A stretch of 64,000 bases of DNA, taken from the IMG/VR virus record IMGVR_UViG_3300028610_002065, positions 8,182 through 72,181 of that record; one strand, written 5' to 3'. Shown here piece by piece: positions 21,430-63,674 of the stretch (position 1 is the stretch's first letter; each line of letters begins with the position of its first letter). Below the pieces are notes generated by a model that saw nothing but the letters and a program-made list of their open reading frames with translations, did not search any database and had not been told where the DNA came from. The translations under genes and the position numbers were made by a program. Source of the DNA: a virus (lineage: Duplodnaviria > Caudoviricetes).

Positions 21430-21739
21430 TCCATGGGGTAAAGTAGCAATTATTCAAGTTGAATTGACTTAAAATTGTTTCGAGTAATTGTTGTGCATAA
21501 TGATTGAATGGCATTTTTCTTAGTTCATTTGGAATACAGAATTTACCACTGCTTGGTTGAGCATTTGGATGTTCTCCATTGATATGAACGTTATCTAGTT
21601 TGCCATCAATTATTGTAAGTTTATACCCTTTGATAAGATATTTACGTGGATACTTTATTATTCTGTAAACATCCCCGTTGTGAATGATTTTTTGTGGACT
21701 AATAAGGTTTTTAACTTCGACTTTTTTAAGATCCATCAT
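21398..21739 (-). CDS. Small E2/UBC-like protein
   Basis: GEHPNAQPSSGKFCI mirrors the E2 HPN...G.IC signature with a candidate catalytic Cys; ATGA overlap with the upstream ThiF gene. Confidence 0.5.
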   Translation of the reverse strand: MMDLKKVEVKNLISPQKIIHNGDVYRIIKYPRKYLIKGYKLTIIDGKLDNVHINGEHPNAQPSSGKFCIPNELRKMPFNHYAQQLLETILSQFNLNNCYFTPWNEIQYRKQEV

Positions 21740-22653
21740 GCTGCTCCTGTCTCTGGAATTAACTCAATTAAAATTTTATCATACTCTTTTGTACAAGACA
21801 CAACATAATTTTTAAAGTTACATGGTATTCTTGTTACAGAATCTAAATTTGTAATTAAATCATTTGCATTTTTTAAAAACCCCATCGGTATCACTGTTTG
21901 AGACATCGGCATAGATTTACTACCGACTATAACATTTAGATCATGCTTTTTATTTAAAGCAAGAATTGGAATAATTTTATCGGGAAGGTTAACGAATTTT
22001 TCATCTCCAGTATCATTTTCATATAAAACATCATATCGGCAGTTGTCAATCTTTTTTACATAATCTAACTCATATTTCTGTACTGACTTTAAATTAATTA
22101 ATGATTTAATTGTACCGCTATGTAAAATCATTGAAACTGTCATAGATGCATACCGTAGATCATCGCTTGTAAGAGTTTCTATATATCTACCATATAGCTG
22201 TTCTCGATAATGAACATTTTTTCTACAGTCAACAATAAGATATCTTGATGAAATATATAATCTACCATCAATATATGAGCCTCTGTTGTATGTGCTATCT
22301 CGACAATCAAGAACTAAATCTGTATTTGGCAAATATATATGATCTTTTGTTTCGTCAAATTTTATAGGAACTGTATCAACTTGAACGTTTGTAATTATAT
22401 CTTTTAATGCATCGACTTTTAATAGAGCAACGTCGATTTGCCTATATATTGAATTAGATAGATTTTTTACTTCAACTATATCGTGGTCTACAATAACTAA
22501 TTTCTCTAATCCTCCTAGATTAGAAACGGCTTCAGCAACGAAACCGCCCAATGTACCAACTCCAATTATTGTGACAGTTCGATATACCACGCTTATAGTT
22601 CTCCTTTCTTTATAGTGGGGGAGCGTGAACTCCCCCCCTGGCTGGCCTAGCAT
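21736..22653 (-). CDS. ThiF/E1-like adenylation enzyme (copy 2)
   Basis: VTIIGVGTLGG, IVDHDIVEVKNL, KVDAL, VLDCRD; true start likely the GTG of VVYRT after a GGAG RBS. Confidence 0.85.
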   Translation of the reverse strand: MLGQPGGEFTLPHYKERRTISVVYRTVTIIGVGTLGGFVAEAVSNLGGLEKLVIVDHDIVEVKNLSNSIYRQIDVALLKVDALKDIITNVQVDTVPIKFDETKDHIYLPNTDLVLDCRDSTYNRGSYIDGRLYISSRYLIVDCRKNVHYREQLYGRYIETLTSDDLRYASMTVSMILHSGTIKSLINLKSVQKYELDYVKKIDNCRYDVLYENDTGDEKFVNLPDKIIPILALNKKHDLNVIVGSKSMPMSQTVIPMGFLKNANDLITNLDSVTRIPCNFKNYVVSCTKEYDKILIELIPETGAA

Positions 22654-22656
22654 AAA

Positions 22657-23280
22657 TTATGCTGCTTCTGCTGACGCCTCTACTTTTACACTAGAGGCAC
22701 TTCGCTCCTTCAATAAAAGAGCTTCTTCTTGTCCTGCTGGGTTTGGCCGGTATTGTGATTTGTATTTATAAGTCTGATTGGCGATCTTTATCGGATAACT
22801 TAGAGGTAGCTGAAAAGCATATTTGGAGACACACTTTCCGTTACCATCAGATACTAAGATATCTATGGATGGATCAACCAATAAAATCTCTGGAATTTTA
22901 TCCTGAAATTCTGTATCATTATCCAGAGTTTTGCATTTAATCTCTCGCCTGACGGTTTCAAGATCTCTCCCAACTGGATTGATTTTGCCGTCATTTTCTT
23001 TTCGCATGAGAGCTTTCATTGCCCGACCGAAGGCTTTGTTCTTTCCCGCCTTCTTACAATAGACATCTTTAACTGAGCAGATCGAAACACCTCTTGCTTC
23101 AATCCGTCTCATTTCGCTGTTGATGAATAGGCATGTGGTGAATGCATTATTCAAGATCGGAGTGCTTCTATAATAAAAAGCAACTCTATCAACGCCATTT
23201 TGATCAAATATATTCTCGATATTTTTATCCATCGTCAAACCCCTTTGTTGGTGGGGGAGCCCCAATGGAGCTCCCACCAT
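22657..23280 (-). CDS. Hypothetical protein in ubiquitin-like cluster
   Basis: Likely start MDKNIEN; RGVSICS..D.YCKK.GK..A.GRA motif. Confidence 0.6.
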   Translation of the reverse strand: MVGAPLGLPHQQRGLTMDKNIENIFDQNGVDRVAFYYRSTPILNNAFTTCLFINSEMRRIEARGVSICSVKDVYCKKAGKNKAFGRAMKALMRKENDGKINPVGRDLETVRREIKCKTLDNDTEFQDKIPEILLVDPSIDILVSDGNGKCVSKYAFQLPLSYPIKIANQTYKYKSQYRPNPAGQEEALLLKERSASSVKVEASAEAA

Positions 23281-23285
23281 AGTTT

Positions 23286-23667
23286 CTATCCCTTACGACC
23301 GGCTGGTTTCAGGAATTCGAGACGGTCACCATTTTTCAGAACATAATTGGCATCCACCTCTTTACCATTGACGAGGCCAGTGGAAAGGCGATCCACATTC
23401 AGGACCTCTCTCAGGCCCGAACGGAGCGCTGGAGTTGCTCAGTACGGAGCTACCGGTAAAGTTAATACCTTGGAGGGGACCGGCGGCCTTTGCTTTAGGG
23501 GCCACAGACGTTCCGCCATCCTGATGTGCGATAATAGCATCAACCACAGCATCTTTCGCCAGTTTACTCAGACCGGAGATGCCGAGTTGTTGGAATGCCA
23601 TTTTCTTCAGACCTTTTGCTGTCATGCTATTCAGATCTTCACGTGAGTACACTTTTCTTCGTGCCAT
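23286..23667 (-). pseudogene. HeH/Rho_N-like + ubiquitin-like (beta-grasp) protein, frameshifted at ~23415
   Basis: Frame 1: MARRKVYSREDL...SSAPFG. The +1 frame continues LREVLNVDRLSTGLVNGKEVDANYVLKNGDRLEFLKPAGRKG-stop (23414-23286), a ThiS/MoaD/Ubl-type C-terminal half ending in Gly. Confidence 0.75.
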
Positions 23668-23681
23668 GTTACTAATTCTCC

Positions 23682-24371
23682 TTATGATGATTTTACGATT
23701 CTTGTTTGTGCATTTGCAGACAGTTGAAGAATATCAAAATATACCTCCGACTGTTGGTCGACCTGGCCCTTTACGATCGTTTTATAAAAGACCCAGCACA
23801 TGATGGTAGCTACCCCAAGATTTGTAAAATACAGTTGGGGTTCTGCTTGAGACAATTCTTCGCATGACATTTCTTCCGGTAACTGGTCTTCGGGATTGGC
23901 AATCTCAGGATGATATGCACAAAGATCCGGTGTTAAATCAATTCCTCCCCTCCGGACATAAACCTGCACATTACCATCTGTTAATTCGTTCCCACCAGAA
24001 ATAATTGTAACATCTCTCAATTGCATGCTGTAATTAGATATAATATTTCTGGTTTTGTGGTTGTCAACACAGATGAAGACTATGTCTCCTTCTCTGATAA
24101 CCTCCGCAACATTTGTTTCATTAATATATGCTTGAAACGAGTCAACTGGAACTTCGGGAAACTTCAACATAATTTCTGTAGCTTTCACATCCGCTTTGTT
24201 CCCGAATTGGTTAAACTCTTGCCGTTCATAGTTTTTTACTTCATAGTCGTCGCCATCTACTAAAAGGAGTTCCGCATCATAGTCTCTGCTATAATTAAGA
24301 AAGCGACATAGGCGTTCAATGAGAATACTGCCTACTCCACCTAGTCCTATAACTGTGATATTTAACTTCAC
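23682..24371 (-). CDS. ThiF/E1-like enzyme (copy 1)
   Basis: VIGLGGVGS, LVDGDDYEVKNYERQ, NKA, ICVDN..TR, ISGGNE, SCEE, QLYFTN. Confidence 0.9.
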   Translation of the reverse strand: MKLNITVIGLGGVGSILIERLCRFLNYSRDYDAELLLVDGDDYEVKNYERQEFNQFGNKADVKATEIMLKFPEVPVDSFQAYINETNVAEVIREGDIVFICVDNHKTRNIISNYSMQLRDVTIISGGNELTDGNVQVYVRRGGIDLTPDLCAYHPEIANPEDQLPEEMSCEELSQAEPQLYFTNLGVATIMCWVFYKTIVKGQVDQQSEVYFDILQLSANAQTRIVKSS

Positions 24372-26153
24372 TTACCCACCTCCACTTCCGAATACTCTTC
24401 TCATCATTTTCCTTAAAGAGTTATTGTGCTTATCTTCAGGACTTTGTGTTAAGAGAGGAATCTGTGGCTTCTGTGGATCTGGGAGCGGCTGTTTTTCTAA
24501 GGTTGAATCTTCTTCAGCTGCTGCCAGTAGTTCACCCGAATCCTTTTTGACAATCTTTTCGGATTCTATAGAAGTGCTGAATGGACTACAGTTGTAACCA
24601 TCCACCATGTATTCCCTACATTTAGGACAGGTTGCTACATCTCCTTCTGTTATAAATACGATCTTACATGATTTGCACTTATAAGACTGATTTGCTATAA
24701 GATTGCCCCCAGATTTGACTTCGATTTCTTCGTCTGACGTCGTGCCTGCTTCTGTTTTTCTATATTCGTTGAAATCGAGTTCCTCTTCGCAAAAAGGACA
24801 TGCATCTTCTCCTTTGTGGGTGAAGGTATTACCACATGTTGGACATACGAAATCATTCCCAATAACCGGATCCATAGGAGTTACATCAATTTTCTTCATA
24901 TCAATTTCATCCGGTGCTGGCTTTCCACATCCAGGGCAAATTGTTGATAAACCCAGATTAAATTTCAGATCACACTTATCACAAATTATATTGATTGATG
25001 TTTGACCTTTTTCAAACATATGATCATAGTTATCATCCAATACAAAGTTGTTGGTTTGTTCATCTTCATCGGGTCCGTCAACTTCTTCCGTATACTGTTC
25101 GATGGCCCAGTCGATTTTTTCATCCCTAAATAAACAGTTCTCACAGGGATTAAGATCTTCATCTTGATCATGGGGAGGAAATTCTATCCCAGCTGTTTTG
25201 TGTGGGCCAACATTTTGTGGAGGAATATGTTTACCTTGAACAACAGTCGGTGGAAGATTCTGCCTTCTCCACGGCTGACGATGTGCCCAACCCCAGGCAT
25301 CAGAGTCGTAATTGCCACCCCAACCTCGGTTGGCATATGCTCCATGACCATAAGCACGACCAAGACCAGCATAACTGTATGTTCCTTTTTCAACCACGTT
25401 CATCCATTTCTTATTGAAGCGTTTCTGGTGATCTGTTACTGTTACTGCATAGCGTTTATCATACTTTCGATGTGTGTATGAATACCGAGATGTTTGCTTC
25501 TCATCTTTGACGAGTTTTCCAGCCACATATTTATATACTGTCGTTGTCGCTTTTTGAACTTCCTCATCAATATCTTGGGTTAACTTTAGTTGTTCAACAT
25601 AGTCGTTTGGATTAACGATGATGCGATAACCATTGGCAACAATTGATGCTGAAATACTGATTTCTTCATCTCTCATGTTACCAAGGGTTATATGAAGTCC
25701 ATCAAAAGCTTCTTCATCTTTATCATCAGTTCCGGAGTGAAATGCCGACATTCCACCATGACTATGAATGGTTCCAATCATGGTTAATCCATCTATCGTT
25801 ATACCCCTATTGTAATCGCAAGCTCCACCGGTGACCTTCTGATGTGGGGGAATGATAGTATGGGTTTTCTTTTCTTCATTGTAGAACAGTAAAACAATTG
25901 CTTCAGCGTAATACTGATGATATACTGCTCTGAAGAACTCAATAACCTTCGCAAACTTTGGACCAGGGATTTTTGAAATTCTCATCCTGGCAGAAGCAGC
26001 AACACTTTCTAATGTTGAAATCTGATTGACTGGAGCAACACTATCCATGACTCCAATAGTTTTCTTCAAAAAGATTCCTTCTTTTGCTATAACATAATAA
26101 ACATCATCATCGGGCATTTGAGTTTGCCCGTCATTTACTACTACCTGGAACAT
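24372..26153 (-). CDS. JAB/MPN metalloprotease (PRTRC protein A-like) with C-terminal zinc ribbons
   Basis: EAIVLLFY...IGTIHSHGGMSAFHSGTDDKDE...GLHITLG; six CxxC pairs in the C-terminal half. Confidence 0.88.
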   Translation of the reverse strand: MFQVVVNDGQTQMPDDDVYYVIAKEGIFLKKTIGVMDSVAPVNQISTLESVAASARMRISKIPGPKFAKVIEFFRAVYHQYYAEAIVLLFYNEEKKTHTIIPPHQKVTGGACDYNRGITIDGLTMIGTIHSHGGMSAFHSGTDDKDEEAFDGLHITLGNMRDEEISISASIVANGYRIIVNPNDYVEQLKLTQDIDEEVQKATTTVYKYVAGKLVKDEKQTSRYSYTHRKYDKRYAVTVTDHQKRFNKKWMNVVEKGTYSYAGLGRAYGHGAYANRGWGGNYDSDAWGWAHRQPWRRQNLPPTVVQGKHIPPQNVGPHKTAGIEFPPHDQDEDLNPCENCLFRDEKIDWAIEQYTEEVDGPDEDEQTNNFVLDDNYDHMFEKGQTSINIICDKCDLKFNLGLSTICPGCGKPAPDEIDMKKIDVTPMDPVIGNDFVCPTCGNTFTHKGEDACPFCEEELDFNEYRKTEAGTTSDEEIEVKSGGNLIANQSYKCKSCKIVFITEGDVATCPKCREYMVDGYNCSPFSTSIESEKIVKKDSGELLAAAEEDSTLEKQPLPDPQKPQIPLLTQSPEDKHNNSLRKMMRRVFGSGGG

Positions 26154-28761
26154 TGATAAACCTCCCTGGTTCGTTTATAAAGTGATAGTTTGATTTTTCA
26201 CTGTAATGAAAAACACCATGAAAATTTGGATACCCCGGCAACATTCCTAGATCATCGCCTTGACTTCGTCTAATTCTTGGATTAGGAATACATTCATAAA
26301 TGTACTCCCTGGTAAATGTAGAATCCATTGGCCGTGTTTCTGGATAACCGCTATAATATTCCATATACTGAGCTCTAACCCCTCGATAATCCGGAAGATG
26401 GGTCACAAAATATCCCTCTGATGTTTTATAATTGGTTGTACCATTGATTAGATCTCCGGGTTGAGGTTTTATTTTGCTTAAATCAATTGGAGCATGTTTA
26501 AGGGTTGCCCATTTCTTTGCCCTCATAGTGACTCTGGTAAAATCTTTCATCATATCATCAAACCATATGGTCTGTCCATTTGAACAAAGAACTAATGGAT
26601 CTTTTCCACCAGTGTCTATTATAAAACCGACTATAATGTTTACACATTTTTTAGGAAAACCTGAATATCCAGATTCGTTAGCAATGATTTTAGTTCCAGC
26701 AGAAACTCGATTAAACACATTGGTTATTTTTCTTATTTTACCAATATTACAAAGTCCTAAATAACCATAAATGTATCTGATCTTTGATAAATTTCCATCT
26801 TTATCAGAAAGGATGAAATAAAGATCTTCACATGTCGACCTGCTCTCTCGTTCAACAATTGAGAACCCTGCAATCTCTTTAACCCTTAGAATATCATGTG
26901 GGTTTTTCCAGTCAGCTGTTACAACTTTATCTCCAACCCTAAACTCAAGGTCTAATAGAAAACCTGGAAGTTTGAATGTATCATTTTTGACTAGTTCAGA
27001 TATCATTCCATGTCTTGGACGACGAAGAGCGCAATTATTTTCATAAGCGAGAGCAGGTCCAGGAACTTCCCAAGCTAAAGTTTCTCGAGGTATTGCAGTT
27101 CCATCACTATTTGTGCTAATAAAATACATCTTTTTCCCTATTCGAAATAATCCGGGTAAAGGTTTTACATTACTTTCACGAAATAATCTTATACCAGATG
27201 AACTAGTTACTCCCTTTGTGCTCATCGGAAGACGATGGGTCACTCCACGTAGAGCACGGAAAGTATTTACAAACTCATATTCTACTTTCATTGATCCACT
27301 ACTAACTCGAACTCTTTTATAGTTCACTTTTGAAGCACACACCATAGGAGATGACCCTCTTGCATCTCTAATTAAAATATACGGTTCATCCTCTTTTAAT
27401 TCAATATTATAGACTGAAGGTTTTTCCATTTCGAATTTGGTAGCATTTATGTTTTCAGCTATATAATAGTCCCTACCAACTTTAAGTTCGGCTCTGCCAT
27501 CTCGTCCCACTCTAATAAAATCAACTGAACCATAATGTTCGCTACCGTCCTTATTAGTGAATATAAGGATATCTCCAGTTTTGACTTTGAGATTGTTATT
27601 TGGTAGAACCATTTCATTTGAATATCGGAGAGCTTTATTTGAGACAGCAATATAGTCTTTCACTTTCTTGGTAAGTTTCATCATAAACTTCTTACCATTC
27701 TTATCGACCATAACATATTTTAACTTACCACCATCTTGGAAACCTATAAATGAGTCGATGTATAATACGTCACCTCTTGAGTTAGTGAACGGATCTCCAA
27801 TACTTAGAAAATATTCTCCTACATATATACCGTTTGCAATATCATAAAATAATGGGAATTTCTTTCTCGATCTCGATGTTGGGAGAGCTTCCATATCAGT
27901 TCTTCCTGGAGCAAAAATGATTTCAGCTGCTCTTGAATAAGTCAATGATTTTTCTCCAATAACGTGAGCATCGTTTTTTACCTTTGTTAACCAGTGACCG
28001 ATATTACCATTTATTTCTATCCATTTGGCATCATAAATGAACAATGGATTTTGTGTTGTTAAGTACTCCCATCTAAGATAGTTCCCAAATTCAGATTCTT
28101 CTTTTCTATATGATTCATAGTTATAAGTATAGTCAGTATTGAAAACAGCTGACCAGAATACCATAATAACATTCTGAATTGTTTGGGTTAGAGAATGTGT
28201 CTCGAACTTATTTGCCTCGCCAAAGCAAACTCTTTGATTGCTAGAAATATTCAGAAGAGGAGCTTTAAGAAGATAATCTGACATCCCTCGCATTTCTTGA
28301 GTCCTTAAAAAGACCAGACCATCTACAAGATGTGTATCGTGTTCAATAAGTAGAATGAATATAACATATGGAAATGCTAAACTAAATGTTCTAGATGAGC
28401 CGCCAGATGCATCAAAATTCTTATATCCAAACTTTTCTAACACGTTTTCTTGTTTGAGTTGACTAACTTCAGATTCAAATCCCTTATGAATTTTTATAGT
28501 TCTGAGGGCTGGAGGTTCTTCAATCAATACCACATGACCTTTGTTAGTTTGTTCAATATATCTGCAATTAGGAGGCAGAATTCCAATATCTGAATGTCCG
28601 GATAGTTTTTTCATATAATCATTTGTGAAAAGAGTTCTTTTTACAATGATTGGTTTACCTTCATCCTTCATAGATCCAGCACCAGGTCCAGGAAATTCTG
28701 TTAATAGATATTGAGTATACTTAGGGTTAATCCTGATCTCTTGAATCAAATCGCTTTTCAT
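26131..28761 (-). CDS. Prokaryotic E2 family D (PRTRC protein B-like) N-terminal domain fused to a long beta-rich region
   Basis: IEEPPALRT..FSLAFPYVIF...LLKAPLLNISSNQRVCFG...FWSAVFN; ~600-aa uncharacterised C-terminus. Confidence 0.7.
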   Translation of the reverse strand: MKSDLIQEIRINPKYTQYLLTEFPGPGAGSMKDEGKPIIVKRTLFTNDYMKKLSGHSDIGILPPNCRYIEQTNKGHVVLIEEPPALRTIKIHKGFESEVSQLKQENVLEKFGYKNFDASGGSSRTFSLAFPYVIFILLIEHDTHLVDGLVFLRTQEMRGMSDYLLKAPLLNISSNQRVCFGEANKFETHSLTQTIQNVIMVFWSAVFNTDYTYNYESYRKEESEFGNYLRWEYLTTQNPLFIYDAKWIEINGNIGHWLTKVKNDAHVIGEKSLTYSRAAEIIFAPGRTDMEALPTSRSRKKFPLFYDIANGIYVGEYFLSIGDPFTNSRGDVLYIDSFIGFQDGGKLKYVMVDKNGKKFMMKLTKKVKDYIAVSNKALRYSNEMVLPNNNLKVKTGDILIFTNKDGSEHYGSVDFIRVGRDGRAELKVGRDYYIAENINATKFEMEKPSVYNIELKEDEPYILIRDARGSSPMVCASKVNYKRVRVSSGSMKVEYEFVNTFRALRGVTHRLPMSTKGVTSSSGIRLFRESNVKPLPGLFRIGKKMYFISTNSDGTAIPRETLAWEVPGPALAYENNCALRRPRHGMISELVKNDTFKLPGFLLDLEFRVGDKVVTADWKNPHDILRVKEIAGFSIVERESRSTCEDLYFILSDKDGNLSKIRYIYGYLGLCNIGKIRKITNVFNRVSAGTKIIANESGYSGFPKKCVNIIVGFIIDTGGKDPLVLCSNGQTIWFDDMMKDFTRVTMRAKKWATLKHAPIDLSKIKPQPGDLINGTTNYKTSEGYFVTHLPDYRGVRAQYMEYYSGYPETRPMDSTFTREYIYECIPNPRIRRSQGDDLGMLPGYPNFHGVFHYSEKSNYHFINEPGRFINVPGSSK

Positions 28762-48587: not shown

Positions 48588-48794
48588 TTAATTTTCATCT
48601 TTAATCTCATATTTATCTCTGAGCTTTTTTGGTACCTTTATCCTACATAAGTTAGCAACTCGAATGAGCATTTCAGGAGTCGTATTTCTGAGAAATTCCT
48701 CGATCCTTCTCCTTAGCTTACGCATCATTAATTCATTCTGCTCAGTCATGAAAGTCTCCTCAAAGCACAAGGGAGAGATAGACAGGAGTTTCAT
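48588..48794 (-). CDS. Hypothetical protein
   Basis: Short basic protein, likely start MTEQ. Confidence 0.45.
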   Translation of the reverse strand: MKLLSISPLCFEETFMTEQNELMMRKLRRRIEEFLRNTTPEMLIRVANLCRIKVPKKLRDKYEIKDEN

Positions 48795-49722
48795 CTTCTT
48801 GTATCATATCTCCCCCACCACCTGAATCTGTTCGGAGAAGATTAGTTTTTAAAGACCCAGTTTGTCCCAACTCTTGTGAACTAATTTGAATGTCTTTCAA
48901 TAAAGGAAGAATCTCAGTTTGAATATGGTCTGAAAATTCGCTTAATATTTTTTCGACTTCATCAGGATCAGCTTCCTTTGGGAATTTTGGCAGGACCAGC
49001 GCTGATGGACGAATTTTTCCTAACATTTTTAAACGAATCATCTCTGCTCCATAGCATCCACGAATCAGATATTTCCAATATGCTTCCCAATGTTGAGGAG
49101 ATGGCATAATTTCAACACCAACCGGAACTCCAGCAAACATGATTATAGCACCAATCTGATTTTCGACTGGTTCGAAAGCTGCTGCAAAGTTTTCAAGAGA
49201 TTTCTTGATTGATGGTTCATCATAAAAGTCTCTGATGTGAGCTCGACTGGTACTTCCTGGGACAATACCCCTTAACCAGATGCTGATTCTATCCCATATT
49301 TTATCGTATTTTCTTCTCGATCTGATGGTTGGATCAAGCAATGCCTTTCTCAATTCAATTGGCAGAATATCTTCATCATTATCACTTTCACGAAGAAGAC
49401 CACCTTGACTTGATTCAACACAGCAGGCATTATCAAACTGGGACTGACTGCGGCTGGCAACAACACCAGAACCTGACATTGCATGATCTTGTGCACTTTT
49501 TCCACGAACCATATAGTTGGCCGGAACAATAGCTGGACGGGATTGATCCTTATTTTCAAATACCATTGTTCCATAACCTGCAGTTCGGGAGAAAGTTAAG
49601 TTTTCAGGATCAGCGATATCTCCTCTCGAAGGACCAACAATTGGAACAACTGTCATTTCATCCTCTGATTGAATTGGACCAACCCCAAGATTTGAAAATC
49701 CTAACGTTTCAAAAATCGACAT
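48760..49722 (-). CDS. ARPP-1/DUF6569-like protein
   Basis: LGVGPIQ...MTVVPI, AQDHA...ACCVESSQG, Q.GAIIMFAG..VGVEI; adjacent to a TROVE-like gene as is typical of the family. Confidence 0.6.
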   Translation of the reverse strand: MSIFETLGFSNLGVGPIQSEDEMTVVPIVGPSRGDIADPENLTFSRTAGYGTMVFENKDQSRPAIVPANYMVRGKSAQDHAMSGSGVVASRSQSQFDNACCVESSQGGLLRESDNDEDILPIELRKALLDPTIRSRRKYDKIWDRISIWLRGIVPGSTSRAHIRDFYDEPSIKKSLENFAAAFEPVENQIGAIIMFAGVPVGVEIMPSPQHWEAYWKYLIRGCYGAEMIRLKMLGKIRPSALVLPKFPKEADPDEVEKILSEFSDHIQTEILPLLKDIQISSQELGQTGSLKTNLLRTDSGGGGDMIQEDETPVYLSLVL

Positions 49723-49727
49723 CTGTT

Positions 49728-51308
49728 TTACCTCCCGATTAGGTTTTGAAATTTATTGACTAAAAGACCCTTCACAACATCTGTATTTTCGATCATTCGT
49801 GTGAAGATAAATTCAGTCTCCACATACCTGTAGTCGTTGAGCGGAATCGGTTTTACATCTGGAACGAGTGCTCTTGCTGTTCCCTGTCTTGCATCAGCAG
49901 AGAATACCGGATTGAAATGAATCAGGTTAAAGTCATGACCTGATTCTTTGAAATGTTTGTAGGTATGAGCAAACATACCTTTTATTGCATTTTCATATCC
50001 ATCCGATAGAACAACAATATTTTTCACTCCAGTTTTAACCGCCTTGGTTAATCCTGACCAAAGGTCTGTGTGATTCATTGGGATAATCATAGTGATCGGT
50101 TTATCAGTTGGAGTTGTAACAACCTTACCACCGACACGAATGACCTCTTTGACATTAGACAAAATAGATAACAGACAGAGAGAAGTCAAAAGAGGGTGTA
50201 ACTTTCTTTCATCACTTCCTTCCATAGATCGTGATGCGTCCACGATTACCACACACTCACCAATATCAAGTTTATCAGCTTTGGTGATTCTGTAGTCAAT
50301 GGCGTCTGAGATTTCATTCATATCCTCAGTATCAGTTTGAGATAGTTTGAAGTAGAGCAGTTTGAAGAGTTCATAAATATCATGATTTTTATAATTGATT
50401 TTTATCTTCTTTGCTCCTACTTTCTTACGAGCTGCAATAGTTTGAATTTCTTCTCTTTCTGATACTTTTGACTTATCATGAACTTCAGATAACTCAATGG
50501 GAACTTTATATTGATTGCGAAAACCGACTACGGTTCTCAGGGGCATTCCCTTCATGTTCTTTTTGAAGTCCTCGACATTTCCTTCTTCGGCTGCTTTTCG
50601 CAGTCTCCAGTAGTATCCGATTTTTGGAAAATAAGCTACAGCTTTTTCGGTTTTATATACTGGTTGTTTATTAAACAAATGCAAGAATATTGGAAATGCA
50701 TCTGGACTATAGCGACCTATCCATTTATCAAACAGCTTTTCATCGCCGTTCAATATTTTGTGTGTGGTCTGTGGGCCAAGAGCATGCCTTGTCAACTTAC
50801 GAAGTTTGTTCTTGAAGTTTACAGCTAACCCATCCAGTTCTTTGTTATCTCGACTAAAGATGAACTCAAGAATTAACTTTCTTGTTCTTGCATTGTTCAC
50901 TTTTGAAAATCCTTCACCTCCAGTCAACATCATTAGATTCTTGATAGCTCTAGCGAAACGATCTTGCGATACCTTATCAAGATTATATCTGAAGATGTCT
51001 TTCTCAAAGTCTTCTGGGAGTGCATCTGGAACTAAATCTTTGCCGGTTCCAGTCTGTGGGTTAGCTAATAACATGTGATTCATAGCTCCCTTTGAAAACC
51101 CTGTTCCGCCCAACAGCGTGACAAGACCAAACATCACTCTATCGAACTTGAATAGTTGTTGCCACATTTGCAGCACTTGTAAAAACTGCTCATCGGCACC
51201 TTCATAGAACGCACCTTTTGGTGCATACTGCATAATCCCTGAGTCAATTTGCACTGGCAATCTTCCTTCAGCCATGCGAACAGCATCTTGTAACTTCTTA
51301 CGAGCCAT
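49728..51308 (-). CDS. TROVE/Ro60-like helical protein with C-terminal vWA domain
   Basis: 526 aa; basic helical N-terminal two-thirds followed by vWA MIDAS (VIVDASRSM, T.L..GL, VVLSDGYEN). Same size and architecture as Ro60/Rsr. Confidence 0.6.
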   Translation of the reverse strand: MARKKLQDAVRMAEGRLPVQIDSGIMQYAPKGAFYEGADEQFLQVLQMWQQLFKFDRVMFGLVTLLGGTGFSKGAMNHMLLANPQTGTGKDLVPDALPEDFEKDIFRYNLDKVSQDRFARAIKNLMMLTGGEGFSKVNNARTRKLILEFIFSRDNKELDGLAVNFKNKLRKLTRHALGPQTTHKILNGDEKLFDKWIGRYSPDAFPIFLHLFNKQPVYKTEKAVAYFPKIGYYWRLRKAAEEGNVEDFKKNMKGMPLRTVVGFRNQYKVPIELSEVHDKSKVSEREEIQTIAARKKVGAKKIKINYKNHDIYELFKLLYFKLSQTDTEDMNEISDAIDYRITKADKLDIGECVVIVDASRSMEGSDERKLHPLLTSLCLLSILSNVKEVIRVGGKVVTTPTDKPITMIIPMNHTDLWSGLTKAVKTGVKNIVVLSDGYENAIKGMFAHTYKHFKESGHDFNLIHFNPVFSADARQGTARALVPDVKPIPLNDYRYVETEFIFTRMIENTDVVKGLLVNKFQNLIGR

Positions 51309-51499
51309 CTCCTATCTCCTTTTTAACGTGGGATAATCATATTCAATTTTTTGGATGAAAAATAAATAGAACTTGCCTTCATAAATTGGCGCTCGGGGGA
51401 GTAAAACGTAGCGTCAAGAAACCCGAAAGTATCTGAATCTACGTTTAGTCCCCCTCGCATAAAATGGTGCCCTTAAAAAGAGTGAAAGATGTAAGGGTT

Positions 51500-51574
51500 T
51501 GGTTGATACACAAGAATCGAACTTGCGACAACCGGCGTGATAGGCCGGAGCTCTTCCAACTGAGCTAATATCTG
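51500..51574 (-). tRNA. Degenerate tRNA-Asp-like element, anticodon ATC, nested in a longer stem
   Basis: TAGCTCAGTTGGAAGAGC D-arm, CCGGC-CTATCAC-GCCGG anticodon arm, GCAAG-TTCGATT-CTTGT T-arm, CCA; only 5 acceptor pairs. Confidence 0.55.
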
Positions 51575-52078
51575 AACTTTCATCGAGTCTCTTTTAATGG
51601 GCATAAAATGAACCAGAAGTAATATATATAATGTGTAGCGTTCCCCTCGTTGGAGGAGAACAGTCGTACAGGTTTTGACACCTTGGAGACCGACTAAGGT
51701 CAATGCTGAAATTATACAAAGTCTTCTGGTCAAAATGGAGCCGGCACATGGATAAACATGTGTATCGTCCGGCATAAAATAAAAGGGGGCCATACATCCG
51801 ATATGCAAGTCTTCTGCACGCGGTGACCCCTAAGATGGTGGAAGCCGTGATCCTTCATGCCGCGGCGCAATCAGGTGACTCCCATAAAATGATGGGGCGC
51901 GATATCCAAAAGACCAGTCCTGCAATTAATTAGCAGCGATAAGGTTAGTGGCACGCCCCATAAAATAGAACTAGAAGTAGAGAATGACTTGTGGGTTATG
52001 TATTTAGCAGTACAATCCTGAAAAGTCAAAAAGTCTTCTAGTTGAAAAAGTCGGGAGTGATAAACGTAATGTGATAGA

Positions 52079-52159
52079 CTTGCCAGTCTGTGGTAGGCAA
52101 GACGGGAATCGAACCCGCGTTCCATGGTCCCATATACCATTGCTGAAACCAACGTCAGC
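52079..52159 (-). tRNA. Rearranged tRNA-like domain (Pro-like sequence; canonical register reads ATG)
   Basis: D-arm, ATGGT-ATATGGG-ACCAT arm, GCGGG-TTCGATT-CCCGT T-arm, CTTGCCT-A-CCA; the complementary GGCAAG lies 3' of the CCA, not 5' of the D-arm. Confidence 0.5.
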
Positions 52160-52259
52160 GTTCTGAAATTACATCAAGTCTCCCGAGAAAATATAGAATA
52201 AAAATAAGTCTCTAATATAAAAATTTAAATTAAAGAACGTTAGAAATGTATCTTTCAAT

Positions 52260-52276
52260 AATTAATATATATAGAA
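52260..52276 (-). promoter_or_regulatory. Candidate early promoter, 17-bp exact repeat TTCTATATATATTAATT
   Basis: Identical to 63658-63674; both copies are intergenic and head a block of non-structural genes. Confidence 0.45.
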
Positions 52277-63657: not shown

Positions 63658-63674
63658 AATTAATATATATAGAA
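63658..63674 (-). promoter_or_regulatory. Second copy of the 17-bp repeat TTCTATATATATTAATT
   Basis: Exact match to 52260-52276. Confidence 0.45.

What the first reader, a model, noticed from the sequence alone, without database searches (positions are those of the whole stretch)
51736..51959. CCA-ended minihelices, one with a perfect alanine acceptor stem
Seen: 51836-51883 is a 48-nt RNA GGGAGTC...GGCTTCC-A-CCA with G1:C72, G2:C71, G3:U70 and A73; 51736-51773 is a 38-nt GCCGG/CCGGC-T-CCA hairpin; 51890-51959 has GGGGCG/CGCCCC-A. Known: G3:U70 with A73 suffices for AlaRS charging of minihelices and is used by tmRNA. Inference: chargeable mini-tRNAs that could donate Ala, act at stalled ribosomes, or titrate synthetases or uncharged-tRNA sensors.
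Basis: partly seen in the sequence, partly recalled or inferred. Interest (0 to 1): 0.7.

Follow-up and report, generated by a model that had tools for sequence, protein, structure and literature searches.

The report
CCA-tailed tRNA-end mimics in phage Ro60 array
The three CCA-ended hairpins are real small-RNA modules inside a row of non-coding RNAs that an uncultured huge phage keeps in front of its Ro60-type RNA-binding gene; they copy the acceptor end of a tRNA, but the "alanine" G:U pair occurs in one module of one lineage only and is probably incidental.

Summary
On the minus strand lie a 70-nt module (51959-51890, tail UCA here, CCA in relatives), a 48-nt module (51883-51836, G3:U70, A73, CCA) and a 38-nt module (51773-51736, U73, CCA).

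They are three of nine modules in a 0.9-kb non-coding array. The array sits between a conserved promoter-like motif and a 526-aa gene whose predicted fold is Ro60. Gene order and array recur in all 13 related phage loci whose upstream flank was held. Six window modules carry a covarying scaffold; these three do not.

In 24 acceptor-type units from six genomes:
- N-1 is U in 23 and N+1 is G in 24.
- The tail is CCA in 20.
- G3:U70 occurs once, in the window.

The 70-nt family has compensatory changes in its stem and G:C or C:G at 3:70. The 38-nt module is 36-37/38 identical across four genomes. The 48-nt module is missing from every fetched relative and folds no better than shuffles.

Best reading: tRNA acceptor-end mimics, probably cut by RNase P and kept stable by CCA, as shown for M. 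smegmatis YrlA. Alanine charging is untested and has no comparative support. No RNA data exist. The scan has noted similar CCA-tailed minihelices and Ro60 arrays in other phage genomes.

The parts
52261..52274 (-). Promoter-like motif CTATATATATTAAT at the head of the array
   Evidence: Only two copies in 64 kb. The same motif heads the gap in every related locus. No terminator-like site lies inside the array.
52051..52186 (-). Module A: scaffold carrying a tRNA/tmRNA-like T arm. Its acceptor stem is closed by a loop (...CUUGCCU-A-CCA-CAGAC-UGGCAAG...).
   Evidence: Rfam tmRNA tRNA-like-domain match of 22 bits, below the gathering score. Stem changes are compensated in L011 and L013. The homologue in L011 is hit by scaffold model R1.
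51969..52043 (-). Module B: short scaffold module
   Evidence: R1 hit, 51.5 bits, E 3.5e-9; fold z -3.67.
51890..51959 (-). M1: 70-nt acceptor-type module, 8-bp stem GGGGCGUG/CGCGCCCC, A73, tail UCA (third element of the finding)
   Evidence: z -3.57. The family is found in L001, L011 (three copies), L013 and L017 (two copies). Four of 8 stem pairs show compensatory change.
51836..51883 (-). M3: 48-nt module with G1:C72, G2:C71, G3:U70, A73, CCA (first element of the finding)
   Evidence: z -0.77. Absent from all fetched loci. Weak end-to-end fit to the M1 model, 5.5 bits, E 0.46. Present in some metagenome contigs and absent from others.
51786..51830 (-). Module F: 7-bp stem GGGGUCA/UGGCCCC, no CCA, A at -1; perhaps a scaffold remnant
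   Evidence: Fold z -2.29. Not hit by R1 or R2. Absent from L011.
51736..51773 (-). M2: 38-nt minihelix GCCGG/CCGGC-U-CCA (second element of the finding)
   Evidence: Fold z -3.10. It is 36-37 of 38 identical in L001, L011 and L017. The exact 27-mer occurs in only two IMG/VR contigs, both Ro arrays.
51611..51731 (-). Module C: scaffold module with a long cargo
   Evidence: R1 hit, 46.4 bits; fold z -6.08.
51465..51602 (-). Module D: scaffold enclosing a full cloverleaf (anticodon AUC), with an outer GCCC/GGGC-A-CCA end
   Evidence: ARAGORN and Rfam tRNA, 45.4 bits; R1 hit.
51387..51458 (-). Module E: short scaffold module with the end GCGAGGGGG.../...CCCCCGAGC-G-CCA
   Evidence: R1 hit, 52.8 bits; fold z -4.22; conserved in L011, L013 and L017.
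49728..51308 (-). Ro60-like gene (helical repeat ring + vWA domain with a MIDAS motif)
   Evidence: AF2 model, pLDDT 78. The top 13 Foldseek PDB hits are all Ro60/TROVE. VIA-align Z 11-13.8 over residues 18-525. DxSxS is invariant. No Pfam or PDB match by sequence.
48760..49722 (-). ARPP-1 domain gene, next to the Ro60-like gene wherever the downstream flank is held
   Evidence: PF20208, E 3.3e-22; synteny.

Best explanation
The three elements are minus-strand RNA modules of a roughly 0.9-kb non-coding array of nine modules (51387-52186). The array lies between a conserved promoter-like motif and a very divergent Ro60-like gene in an uncultured huge phage.

Six neighbouring modules carry the array's own covarying scaffold (P1, G-ACU, P2, UUCAG, cargo, P2', P1'). 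That scaffold is the likely Ro60-binding part. The three elements of the finding lack it. They are bare mimics of the tRNA acceptor end: U at -1, G+1 paired to C72, a terminal stem of 5-8 bp, a discriminator base and an encoded CCA (UCA in M1 of this genome).

Most likely mechanism (inferred):
1. The array is transcribed as one precursor.
2. Host RNase P cuts at each U|G junction.
3. The 6-7-nt AU-rich trailers are trimmed back to CCA.
4. The tRNA-like ends protect the released RNAs from exonucleases, as proposed for M. smegmatis YrlA.

M1 and M2 are selected RNAs with a job of their own beside the Ro60 particle. M3 is a lineage-specific, weakly structured module, perhaps a shortened M1 relative. 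Its G3:U70 is one wobble pair among many in these stems, not a conserved alanine identity mark.
For: Shown here:
- Sequence and coordinates.
- Ro60-like fold of the downstream gene with an invariant MIDAS motif.
- The block p208, p86, array, Ro, ARPP-1, p68, p217, p316 is the same in every related phage locus, as far as each flank reaches. L010 and L017 gave no p68 match.
- Scaffold model R1 gives 55 sense-strand hits, all inside these gaps, and none over 51736-51959. 91% of cells pair and 14 of 15 pairs covary.
- In 24 acceptor-type units, N-1 is U in 23, N+1 is G in 24, G1:C72 holds in 23, and the tail is CCA in 20. Such units are enriched against shuffles.
- M1's stem covaries.
- M2 is nearly invariant across genomes with 51-86% Ro identity.
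- M1 and M2 patterns occur in IMG/VR only in Ro arrays.
- G3:U70 occurs in 1 of 24 units.

From the literature:
- M. smegmatis YrlA, encoded upstream of Ro60, is cut by RNase P and gains CCA in vivo (PMC4201824).
- Phage Ro60 binds Y-like RNAs encoded upstream of its gene (PMC12135203).
- A 3' RCCA motif and residue -1 contribute to bacterial RNase P cleavage (abstracts of PMC12710915 and PMC10465520).
Against: - No RNA data exist, so transcription, the cuts and the 3' ends are all inferred.
- The host is unknown. If it were an archaeon, the RCCA argument would weaken.
- The acceptor-type modules sit together in mid-array rather than alternating with scaffold modules, and more distant relatives have arrays without them. 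They are therefore not needed to process the array.
- The Ro60 assignment rests on a predicted fold with modest TM-scores (0.35-0.45) and no sequence-level match.
- M1 here ends in UCA.
- Nothing shows that M1-M3 bind Ro60.
Confidence: 0.6

Rival explanations
1. One reading: M3, and perhaps the others, are charged by a synthetase (M3 with alanine through G3:U70 and A73). They would then act in translation, in ribosome rescue, or as sinks for synthetases or sensors of uncharged tRNA.
For: M3 has G1:C72, G2:C71, G3:U70, A73 and CCA. AlaRS in all three domains relies mainly on G3:U70 (PMC6451123 abstract), and RNA minihelices are used as alanylation substrates (PMC11392972 abstract). Chen et al. 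raise possible aminoacylation of the RNase P-cut YrlA (PMC4201824).
Against: - G3:U70 occurs in 1 of 24 units. The M1 family has G:C or C:G there. The unit at the same place in L011 has G4:U69.
- M3 is absent from all fetched relatives and from some strain contigs.
- M3's fold z is -0.77.
- There is no tag reading frame and no tmRNA features.
- Among 24 stems some identity set is matched easily. L013_E2, for instance, has G1:C72, C2:G71, G3:C70 and U73, the E. coli glycine set as I recall it.
Confidence: 0.07
2. Pure punctuation: the minihelices have no function of their own. They serve only as RNase P handles that cut the scaffold RNAs out of the precursor, like tRNAs in mitochondrial transcripts.
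For: The signature U-1 / G+1 / N73-CCA is shared by all units. B is followed by M1, F by M2 and C by D, so a cut at each G+1 would free the 3' end of the preceding module.
Against: - The M modules lie next to each other (M1-M3-F-M2 here; M1a-M1b-X-M2-M1c in L011), not between scaffold modules.
- Relatives L002-L010 have arrays with few or none of them.
- M2 is conserved in sequence (36-37 of 38), loop and bulge flanks included. A mere structural handle would not need that.
Confidence: 0.2
3. Decoys: the CCA-ended mimics soak up host factors that act on the tRNA acceptor end, such as toxins that modify or cut the 3' end, or tRNA-binding sensors. That would protect phage translation.
For: - Several different acceptor stems and discriminator bases (A, U, G) are kept side by side.
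- Modules are gained and lost like cassettes between strains, as in conflict systems.
- Next to the Ro60-like gene is ARPP-1, a domain described in predicted conflict systems (PMC9503650).
Against: There is no direct evidence and no known target. The stems do not obviously copy particular tRNAs. The host is unknown.
Confidence: 0.12
4. For M3 only: neutral debris, a recent truncated copy of an M1-type module on its way out.
For: - It has only a weak end-to-end fit to the M1 model with the same layout: stem, CC...GG, AU-rich bulge, stem, ACCA.
- Its fold is no better than shuffles.
- It is absent from all fetched relatives, and a strain contig joins the M1 end directly to module F.
Against: M3 keeps a perfect 7-bp stem, the exact AUUUUAU|G leader and ACCA. 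It is present with few changes in contigs of four other metagenome studies.
Confidence: 0.3

Closest known systems
YrlA-type Y RNAs with Ro60/Rsr in bacteria and phages (Rfam RF02553; Chen et al. 2014, PMC4201824; Thermus phage phiLo Yrl1/Yrl2, PMC12135203)
   Same: Non-coding RNAs encoded directly upstream of a Ro60 gene and made from one precursor, with tRNA-like parts. M. smegmatis YrlA is cut by RNase P and carries CCA.
   Different: - No match to RF02553, and no GNCGAA/CGAA motif seen.
- The scaffold here is G-ACU...UUCAG.
- There are 6-11 modules per array rather than 1-2.
- The three elements of the finding have neither a scaffold nor D or T arms.
- CCA is encoded, not added.
- The Ro protein has no TROVE match by sequence.
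Synthetic acceptor-stem/T-arm minihelices and microhelices, used as minimal substrates of AlaRS, RNase P, CCA-adding enzyme and EF-Tu (from my own knowledge; PMC11392972, PMC11221534)
   Same: M2 is an 11-bp coaxial helix with a continuous 3' strand, a discriminator base and CCA. M3 has a 7-bp stem with G3:U70 and ACCA.
   Different: These are natural, phage-encoded and conserved. M2 has a 6-nt bulge and a 6-nt loop that is not a T loop. The inner helices of M1 and M3 stack on the 5' strand, not the 3' strand.
tRNA-like domain of tmRNA
   Same: G1:C72, G2:C71, G3:U70, A73 and CCA in M3.
   Different: No T arm, no pseudoknots and no tag reading frame. ARAGORN finds no tmRNA. The only Rfam tmRNA match in the gap is module A, not the elements of the finding, and it is below the gathering score.
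Small stable RNAs of phage tRNA clusters (T4 species 1 and 2, rnaC/rnaD; recalled from memory, not checked here)
   Same: Phage-encoded small RNAs of unknown function, processed together with tRNA-like neighbours.
   Different: No sequence relation was tested. Those lie in true tRNA clusters, these in a Ro60 array.
Polycistronic tRNA operons separated by RNase P, and mitochondrial tRNA punctuation (from my own knowledge)
   Same: Short AU-rich spacers with U at -1 and G at +1 between successive acceptor-type units.
   Different: The units are not tRNAs, and they cluster together rather than flank other genes.

Membership tests
Canonical tRNA | Cloverleaf with D, anticodon and T arms | tested here: not met
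   ARAGORN and Rfam report only 51501-51574 (module D) in the window, and nothing over 51736-51959 even at E up to 10.
tmRNA | tRNA-like domain with a T arm, pseudoknots and a tag reading frame | tested here: not met
   No tmRNA by ARAGORN. The only Rfam tmRNA match is 52091-52156 (module A), 22 bits against a gathering score of 47.
tRNA-Ala acceptor identity | G3:U70 with A73, G1:C72 and G2:C71 in a 7-bp stem ending in CCA | tested here: met
   True for M3 only. M1 has G3:C70 and M2 has C3:G70 with U73.
tRNA-Ala acceptor identity | The G3:U70 pair is conserved in homologues | tested here: not met
   1 of 24 acceptor-type units. M3 has no homologue in L001, L011, L013 or L017. The base at 51842 in the closer metagenome contigs could not be read.
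tRNA-Ala acceptor identity | Aminoacylation by AlaRS | not testable with these tools
   This needs an in vitro charging assay.
YrlA / Y RNA (RF02553) | Match to the family's covariance model | tested here: not met
   No RF02553 match in the window gap at E up to 10, or in eight related loci at E up to 0.1.
YrlA / Y RNA (RF02553) | Encoded next to a Ro60 gene, on the same strand | tested here: met
   The array lies directly upstream of a Ro60-like gene in every locus with an upstream flank.
YrlA / Y RNA (RF02553) | Bound by Ro60 | not testable with these tools
   This needs an EMSA or a pull-down.
The array's own scaffold family (model R1) | P1, G-ACU, P2, UUCAG, cargo, P2', P1' | tested here: not met
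   R1 hits modules B, C, D and E in the window but nothing over 51736-51959.
Bacterial RNase P minihelix-type substrate | U at -1, G+1:C72, a terminal stem and a 3' RCCA | tested here: met
   M3 has all of these. M2 has a 5-bp stem and UCCA. M1 has an 8-bp stem and AUCA here, ACCA in relatives.
Bacterial RNase P minihelix-type substrate | Cleavage by RNase P | not testable with these tools
   This needs a cleavage assay or end mapping.
Ro60 / TROVE protein (the downstream gene) | Helical-repeat ring plus a vWA domain with MIDAS | tested here: met
   - Top Foldseek hits are all Ro60, E 3e-6 to 1e-3.
- VIA-align Z 11-13.8 over 377-398 aligned residues, rmsd 6.3-9.0.
- DxSxS is invariant.
Ro60 / TROVE protein (the downstream gene) | Sequence match to the Pfam TROVE domain or to solved Ro60 chains | tested here: not met
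   No Pfam family. No Ro60 hit by phmmer or by profile against PDB sequences.

The most novel reading that the evidence does not exclude
A clade of uncultured huge phages keeps a small battery of encoded, CCA-tailed mimics of the tRNA acceptor end. These include several stem and discriminator types and a nearly invariant 38-nt minihelix. They would work with a divergent Ro60 and its constant ARPP-1 neighbour as decoys or adaptors for factors that act on tRNA 3' ends. One or more of them, such as M3 through G3:U70, might really be aminoacylated.
Probability: 0.12. Interest if true: 0.75.

Novelty: new variant of a known kind. Interest (0 to 1): 0.5.

Why it matters
Ro60 with Y RNAs is an old RNA quality-control system, and its bacterial and phage forms are poorly understood. 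This case shows a divergent, Pfam-invisible Ro60 subfamily, common in marine sediment and subsurface metagenomes (more than 230 proteins). It comes with unusually long RNA arrays.

Inside those arrays is a class of module reduced to the tRNA acceptor end, with an encoded CCA. If these RNAs are made, they are natural counterparts of the laboratory minihelix. They would give a handle on what the tRNA-like parts of Y RNAs are for: end protection, processing or decoy.

For the finding as written, the main value is negative. The alanine reading rests on one non-conserved wobble pair.

Tried and rejected
The contigs of the closest Ro homologues (P0001-P0010, 82-96% identity) could therefore not be fetched, and the base opposite G3 in close M3 homologues could not be read.
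- Read laying showed contigs covering M3 with 2-13 changes.
- No RNA holder was listed by the look-up of sequencing runs.
- An M3 inner 18-mer has no match in IMG/VR.
- A single-protein scan of IMG/VR found nothing; the alignment-based scan found 10 loci.
- The genome-contig scan gave only a fragment and one distant MAG locus.
- No whole genome is held for this window.
- The Ro-like protein has no hit in Pfam, PHROGs or PDB sequences.
- blastn of the gap against GenBank phages matched only a 56-nt tRNA-like piece.
- ORFs overlapping the array (111, 67 and 93 aa) match relatives only in patches and in more than one frame. This is nucleotide conservation, not coding.
- A loose scan for stems ending in NCCA has a high background, 15 in shuffles against 37 observed. 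It was replaced by the stricter test.
- M3 as a member of the M1 family remains only a weak hint.

Full report
**1. What is in the sequence**

All genes of the window lie on the minus strand. Read on that strand, the gap 52294-51309 holds a chain of structured units.

- M3 (51883-51836, 48 nt) is GGGAGUC...GGCUUCC-A-CCA, with G1:C72, G2:C71, G3:U70, A4:U69, G5:C68, U6:G67 and C7:G66.
- M2 (51773-51736, 38 nt) is GCCGG-ACGAUA-CACAUG-UUUAUC-CAUGUG-CCGGC-U-CCA. That makes an 11-bp helix with a continuous 3' strand and a 6-nt bulge where a tRNA would carry its D and anticodon arms.
- M1 (51959-51890, 70 nt) has the 8-bp stem GGGGCGUG/CGCGCCCC and A73. Its tail is UCA here.

Each of these, and also modules D and E, starts with G directly after AUUUUAU. 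Fold energies against shuffles give z -3.57 (M1), -3.10 (M2) and -0.77 (M3). ARAGORN and Rfam see only one tRNA-like element in the window, inside module D. They see nothing over 51736-51959, even at E up to 10.

**2. Context**

The window comes from a huge phage. It encodes two sets of multisubunit RNA polymerase beta/beta' genes, a terminase, topoisomerase II, SbcCD and a ThiF/E2/JAB set. No whole genome is held.

The 526-aa gene directly downstream of the gap (49728-51308) has no Pfam, PHROG or PDB match by sequence. The case that it is Ro60-like is structural:
- An AlphaFold model built on 36 homologues (pLDDT 78) finds only Ro60/TROVE structures as its 13 best Foldseek hits. These include Ro60 of Thermus phage phiLo and Deinococcus Rsr (E 3e-6 to 1e-3).
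- VIA-align gives Z 11-13.8 over residues 18-525.
- The C-terminal domain is a vWA fold whose DxSxS (MIDAS) motif is invariant in the family.

I take the protein to be Ro60-like with about 0.8 confidence. The TM-scores are modest (0.35-0.45), and helical repeats can reach such Z-scores by chance. The next gene carries an ARPP-1 domain (PF20208).

**3. Relatives**

The protein family is large: 237 hits at E of 1e-3 or better among the 8000 candidates scored, the 120 listed being 51-96% identical. I obtained these loci:
- ten from IMG/VR, two of them (L008 and L009) with identical gaps;
- four from JGI and other metagenomes, of which L011 (86% identity) and L013 (81%) carry the upstream flank;
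- one more through the M2 pattern (L017);
- a distant MAG locus (L016).

The block p208, p86, non-coding gap of 0.7-1.3 kb, Ro, ARPP-1, p68, p217, p316 is the same in every phage locus, as far as each flank reaches. L010 and L017 gave no p68 match. Every gap begins with the motif CTATATATATTAAT, or a close variant of it in a few loci. That motif occurs only twice in the 64-kb window. No terminator-like site lies in the array.

**4. The scaffold family, and why the three elements do not belong to it**

Most units share the layout P1, G-ACU(n), P2, UUCAG, variable cargo, P2', n-A, P1'. A covariance model built from 25 short units gives these results:
- 55 sense-strand hits, all inside the gaps. 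In the window they are modules B, C, D and E only.
- On the model alignment 91% of cells pair, against 34-48% when the partner is slid.
- 14 of 15 pairs show compensatory change, and 214 cells are changed on both sides against 68 in shuffles.

This is the likely Ro60-binding part, but that is an inference. It is not the GNCGAA motif of YrlA, and Rfam's YrlA model matches nothing here or in the relatives. The scaffold model does not hit 51736-51959.

**5. The acceptor-type units as a class**

I tabulated 24 units from six genomes that start after a U-rich leader and close with a terminal stem:
- N-1 is U in 23 and N+1 is G in 24.
- G1:C72 holds in 23.
- The tail is CCA in 20, UCA in 3 and CCU in 1.
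- The discriminator is A in 15, U in 5 and G in 4.

Units of the form U|G + at least 7 bp + N + CCA number 8, against 1.04 +/- 1.08 in dinucleotide shuffles. Some of these units are scaffold modules with an added acceptor-like end (D, E, L017_S). The CCA ends are therefore a property of the array in this subclade, not of the three hairpins alone. More distant relatives (L002-L010) have few or none.

**6. Each element**

M1 is a family.
- It has one to three copies in L001, L011, L013 and L017.
- In the terminal stem 4 of 8 pairs show compensatory change: pair 2 GC to UG, pair 3 GC to CG, pair 5 CG, UA or AU, pair 8 GC to AU. 93.5% of cells pair, against 35-55% when slid.
- Pair 3:70 is G:C or C:G, never G:U.

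M2 is 36-37 of 38 identical in the window, L001, L011 and L017. The differences lie in the bulge, while the Ro proteins are only 51-86% identical. Its stems never vary, so there is no covariation evidence. The case for M2 rests on conservation and on its fold energy. Exact M1 and M2 patterns occur in 2.9 million IMG/VR contigs only in the two Ro-array contigs.

M3 has no counterpart in any fetched locus.
- L011 has at that place a different 50-nt unit, GGGGCGGG.../...CCCGUCCC-A-CCA, with G4:U69. L013 has none.
- With filters off, M3 fits the M1 model end to end with the same layout, but at 5.5 bits and E 0.46.
- Contigs of four other metagenome studies cover M3 with few changes. One contig of X6 joins an M1 end directly to module F.
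- Other contigs skip M1+M3+F or F+M2, with the junctions in the shared leader or the CCA tail. The tool warns that such joints in metagenomes can come from other organisms.

Modules thus behave as cassettes.

**7. The alanine reading**

G3:U70 is the main mark of tRNA-Ala for AlaRS in all three domains (PMC6451123), and minihelices serve as alanylation substrates (PMC11392972). M3 therefore has what is needed on paper.

The comparative evidence does not favour selection for it. It occurs once in 24 units. Wobble pairs with G on the 5' strand occur at positions 3, 4 and 5 (one, one and two cases), and U:G pairs at positions 2, 4, 6 and 7. A G:C to G:U change needs one transition and keeps the stem.

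Other stems match other acceptor sets just as well. L013_E2, for instance, has G1:C72, C2:G71, G3:C70 and U73, the E. coli glycine set as I recall it. I put functional alanylation at about 0.07. It cannot be excluded without an assay.

**8. Mechanism proposed**

The nearest precedent is M. smegmatis YrlA. It is encoded upstream of Ro60 on one precursor with YrlB, is cut by RNase P in vitro and in vivo, and carries CCA. The authors suggest that CCA, and possibly charging, protect the RNA from exonucleases (PMC4201824). Phage phiLo Ro60 binds two Y-like RNAs encoded upstream of its gene (PMC12135203).

U at -1, G+1:C72 and a 3' RCCA are features that bacterial RNase P uses (abstracts of PMC12710915 and PMC10465520; the rest is my own knowledge). 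I therefore propose one transcript from the conserved motif, RNase P cuts at each U|G, trimming of the 6-7-nt AU-rich trailers back to CCA, and stable small RNAs as the product. All of these steps are inferred.

The M modules lie side by side rather than between scaffold modules, and M2 is conserved in sequence. For those reasons I rate pure punctuation lower (0.2). I favour a role of their own beside the Ro60 particle. A decoy role (0.12) is a speculative alternative.

**9. Verdict**

The thing belongs with Ro60/Y-RNA systems, which are known in phages. It differs from them in the scaffold motif, the array length, a Ro60 that sequence methods do not recognise, and the bare CCA-tailed modules. 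I therefore rate it a new variant of a known kind.

Earlier notes of this scan describe similar CCA-tailed minihelices and tRNA-flanked Y RNA arrays in other phage genomes. I did not test those.

Noticed in passing
window 52051-52186 (-): Module A carries a tRNA/tmRNA-like T arm whose acceptor stem is closed by a loop after the CCA (CUUGCCU-A-CCA-CAGAC-UGGCAAG). Pair 3:70 changes from G-C (window, L011) to A-U (L013). The layout is that of M. smegmatis YrlA, which RNase P cuts in this loop.
   Followed up: partly
window 51465-51602 (-): Module D nests a full cloverleaf (Rfam tRNA, 45 bits; anticodon AUC) inside the scaffold and an outer GCCC/GGGC-A-CCA stem. The homologous cargo in relatives has a different anticodon loop in nearly every genome (UCC, AUA, UUA, UUG, AAU, GAU), so decoding is unlikely to be its job.
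   Followed up: partly
window about 51330-51365 (-), and the same place in all loci: A conserved element AAAAAWTGGATAT-N9-10-TACGTYG lies 30-60 nt before the start codon of the Ro60-like gene. It may be a second promoter or an operator.
   Followed up: no
window 48760-49722 (-) and all loci: An ARPP-1 domain gene follows the Ro60-like gene in every locus whose downstream flank is held, including a distant Microscillaceae MAG contig (L016: Ro 22% identical, ARPP-like 30%). The ARPP paper text I read lists ARG, HIRAN, WYL and deacetylase contexts, not TROVE.
   Followed up: partly
L016:300-380 (+): Upstream of the distant bacterial Ro-like gene lies CAGGG-ACUU-GAGGGUUAA...UUAACCCUC-UUCCUA-CCCUG. 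By eye it has the same P1, ACU, P2 scaffold, though model R1 did not report it.
   Followed up: no
window 51737-52018 (joints): Metagenome contigs of related strains skip whole modules (M1+M3+F; F+M2; others), with junctions in the shared AUUUUAU leader or the CCA tail. This suggests that the array evolves by unequal recombination between these repeats.
   Followed up: partly
window 52261-52274 and 63659-63672 (-): The exact motif CTATATATATTAAT occurs only at these two places in 64 kb, and it heads the RNA array in all relatives (L007 has two copies). It is a likely promoter for one of the two phage RNA polymerases.
   Followed up: partly
L007:5684-5798 (+): A long hairpin lies between the p68 and p217 homologues. 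Two plant or animal microRNA precursor models of Rfam hit it, well below their gathering scores, which is surely a hit on shape alone.
   Followed up: no
window 21736-28761 (-): Two ThiF/E1-like genes, a JAB domain protein with zinc ribbons and a protein with a prokaryotic E2 domain form a ubiquitin-like conjugation set in the phage.
   Followed up: no
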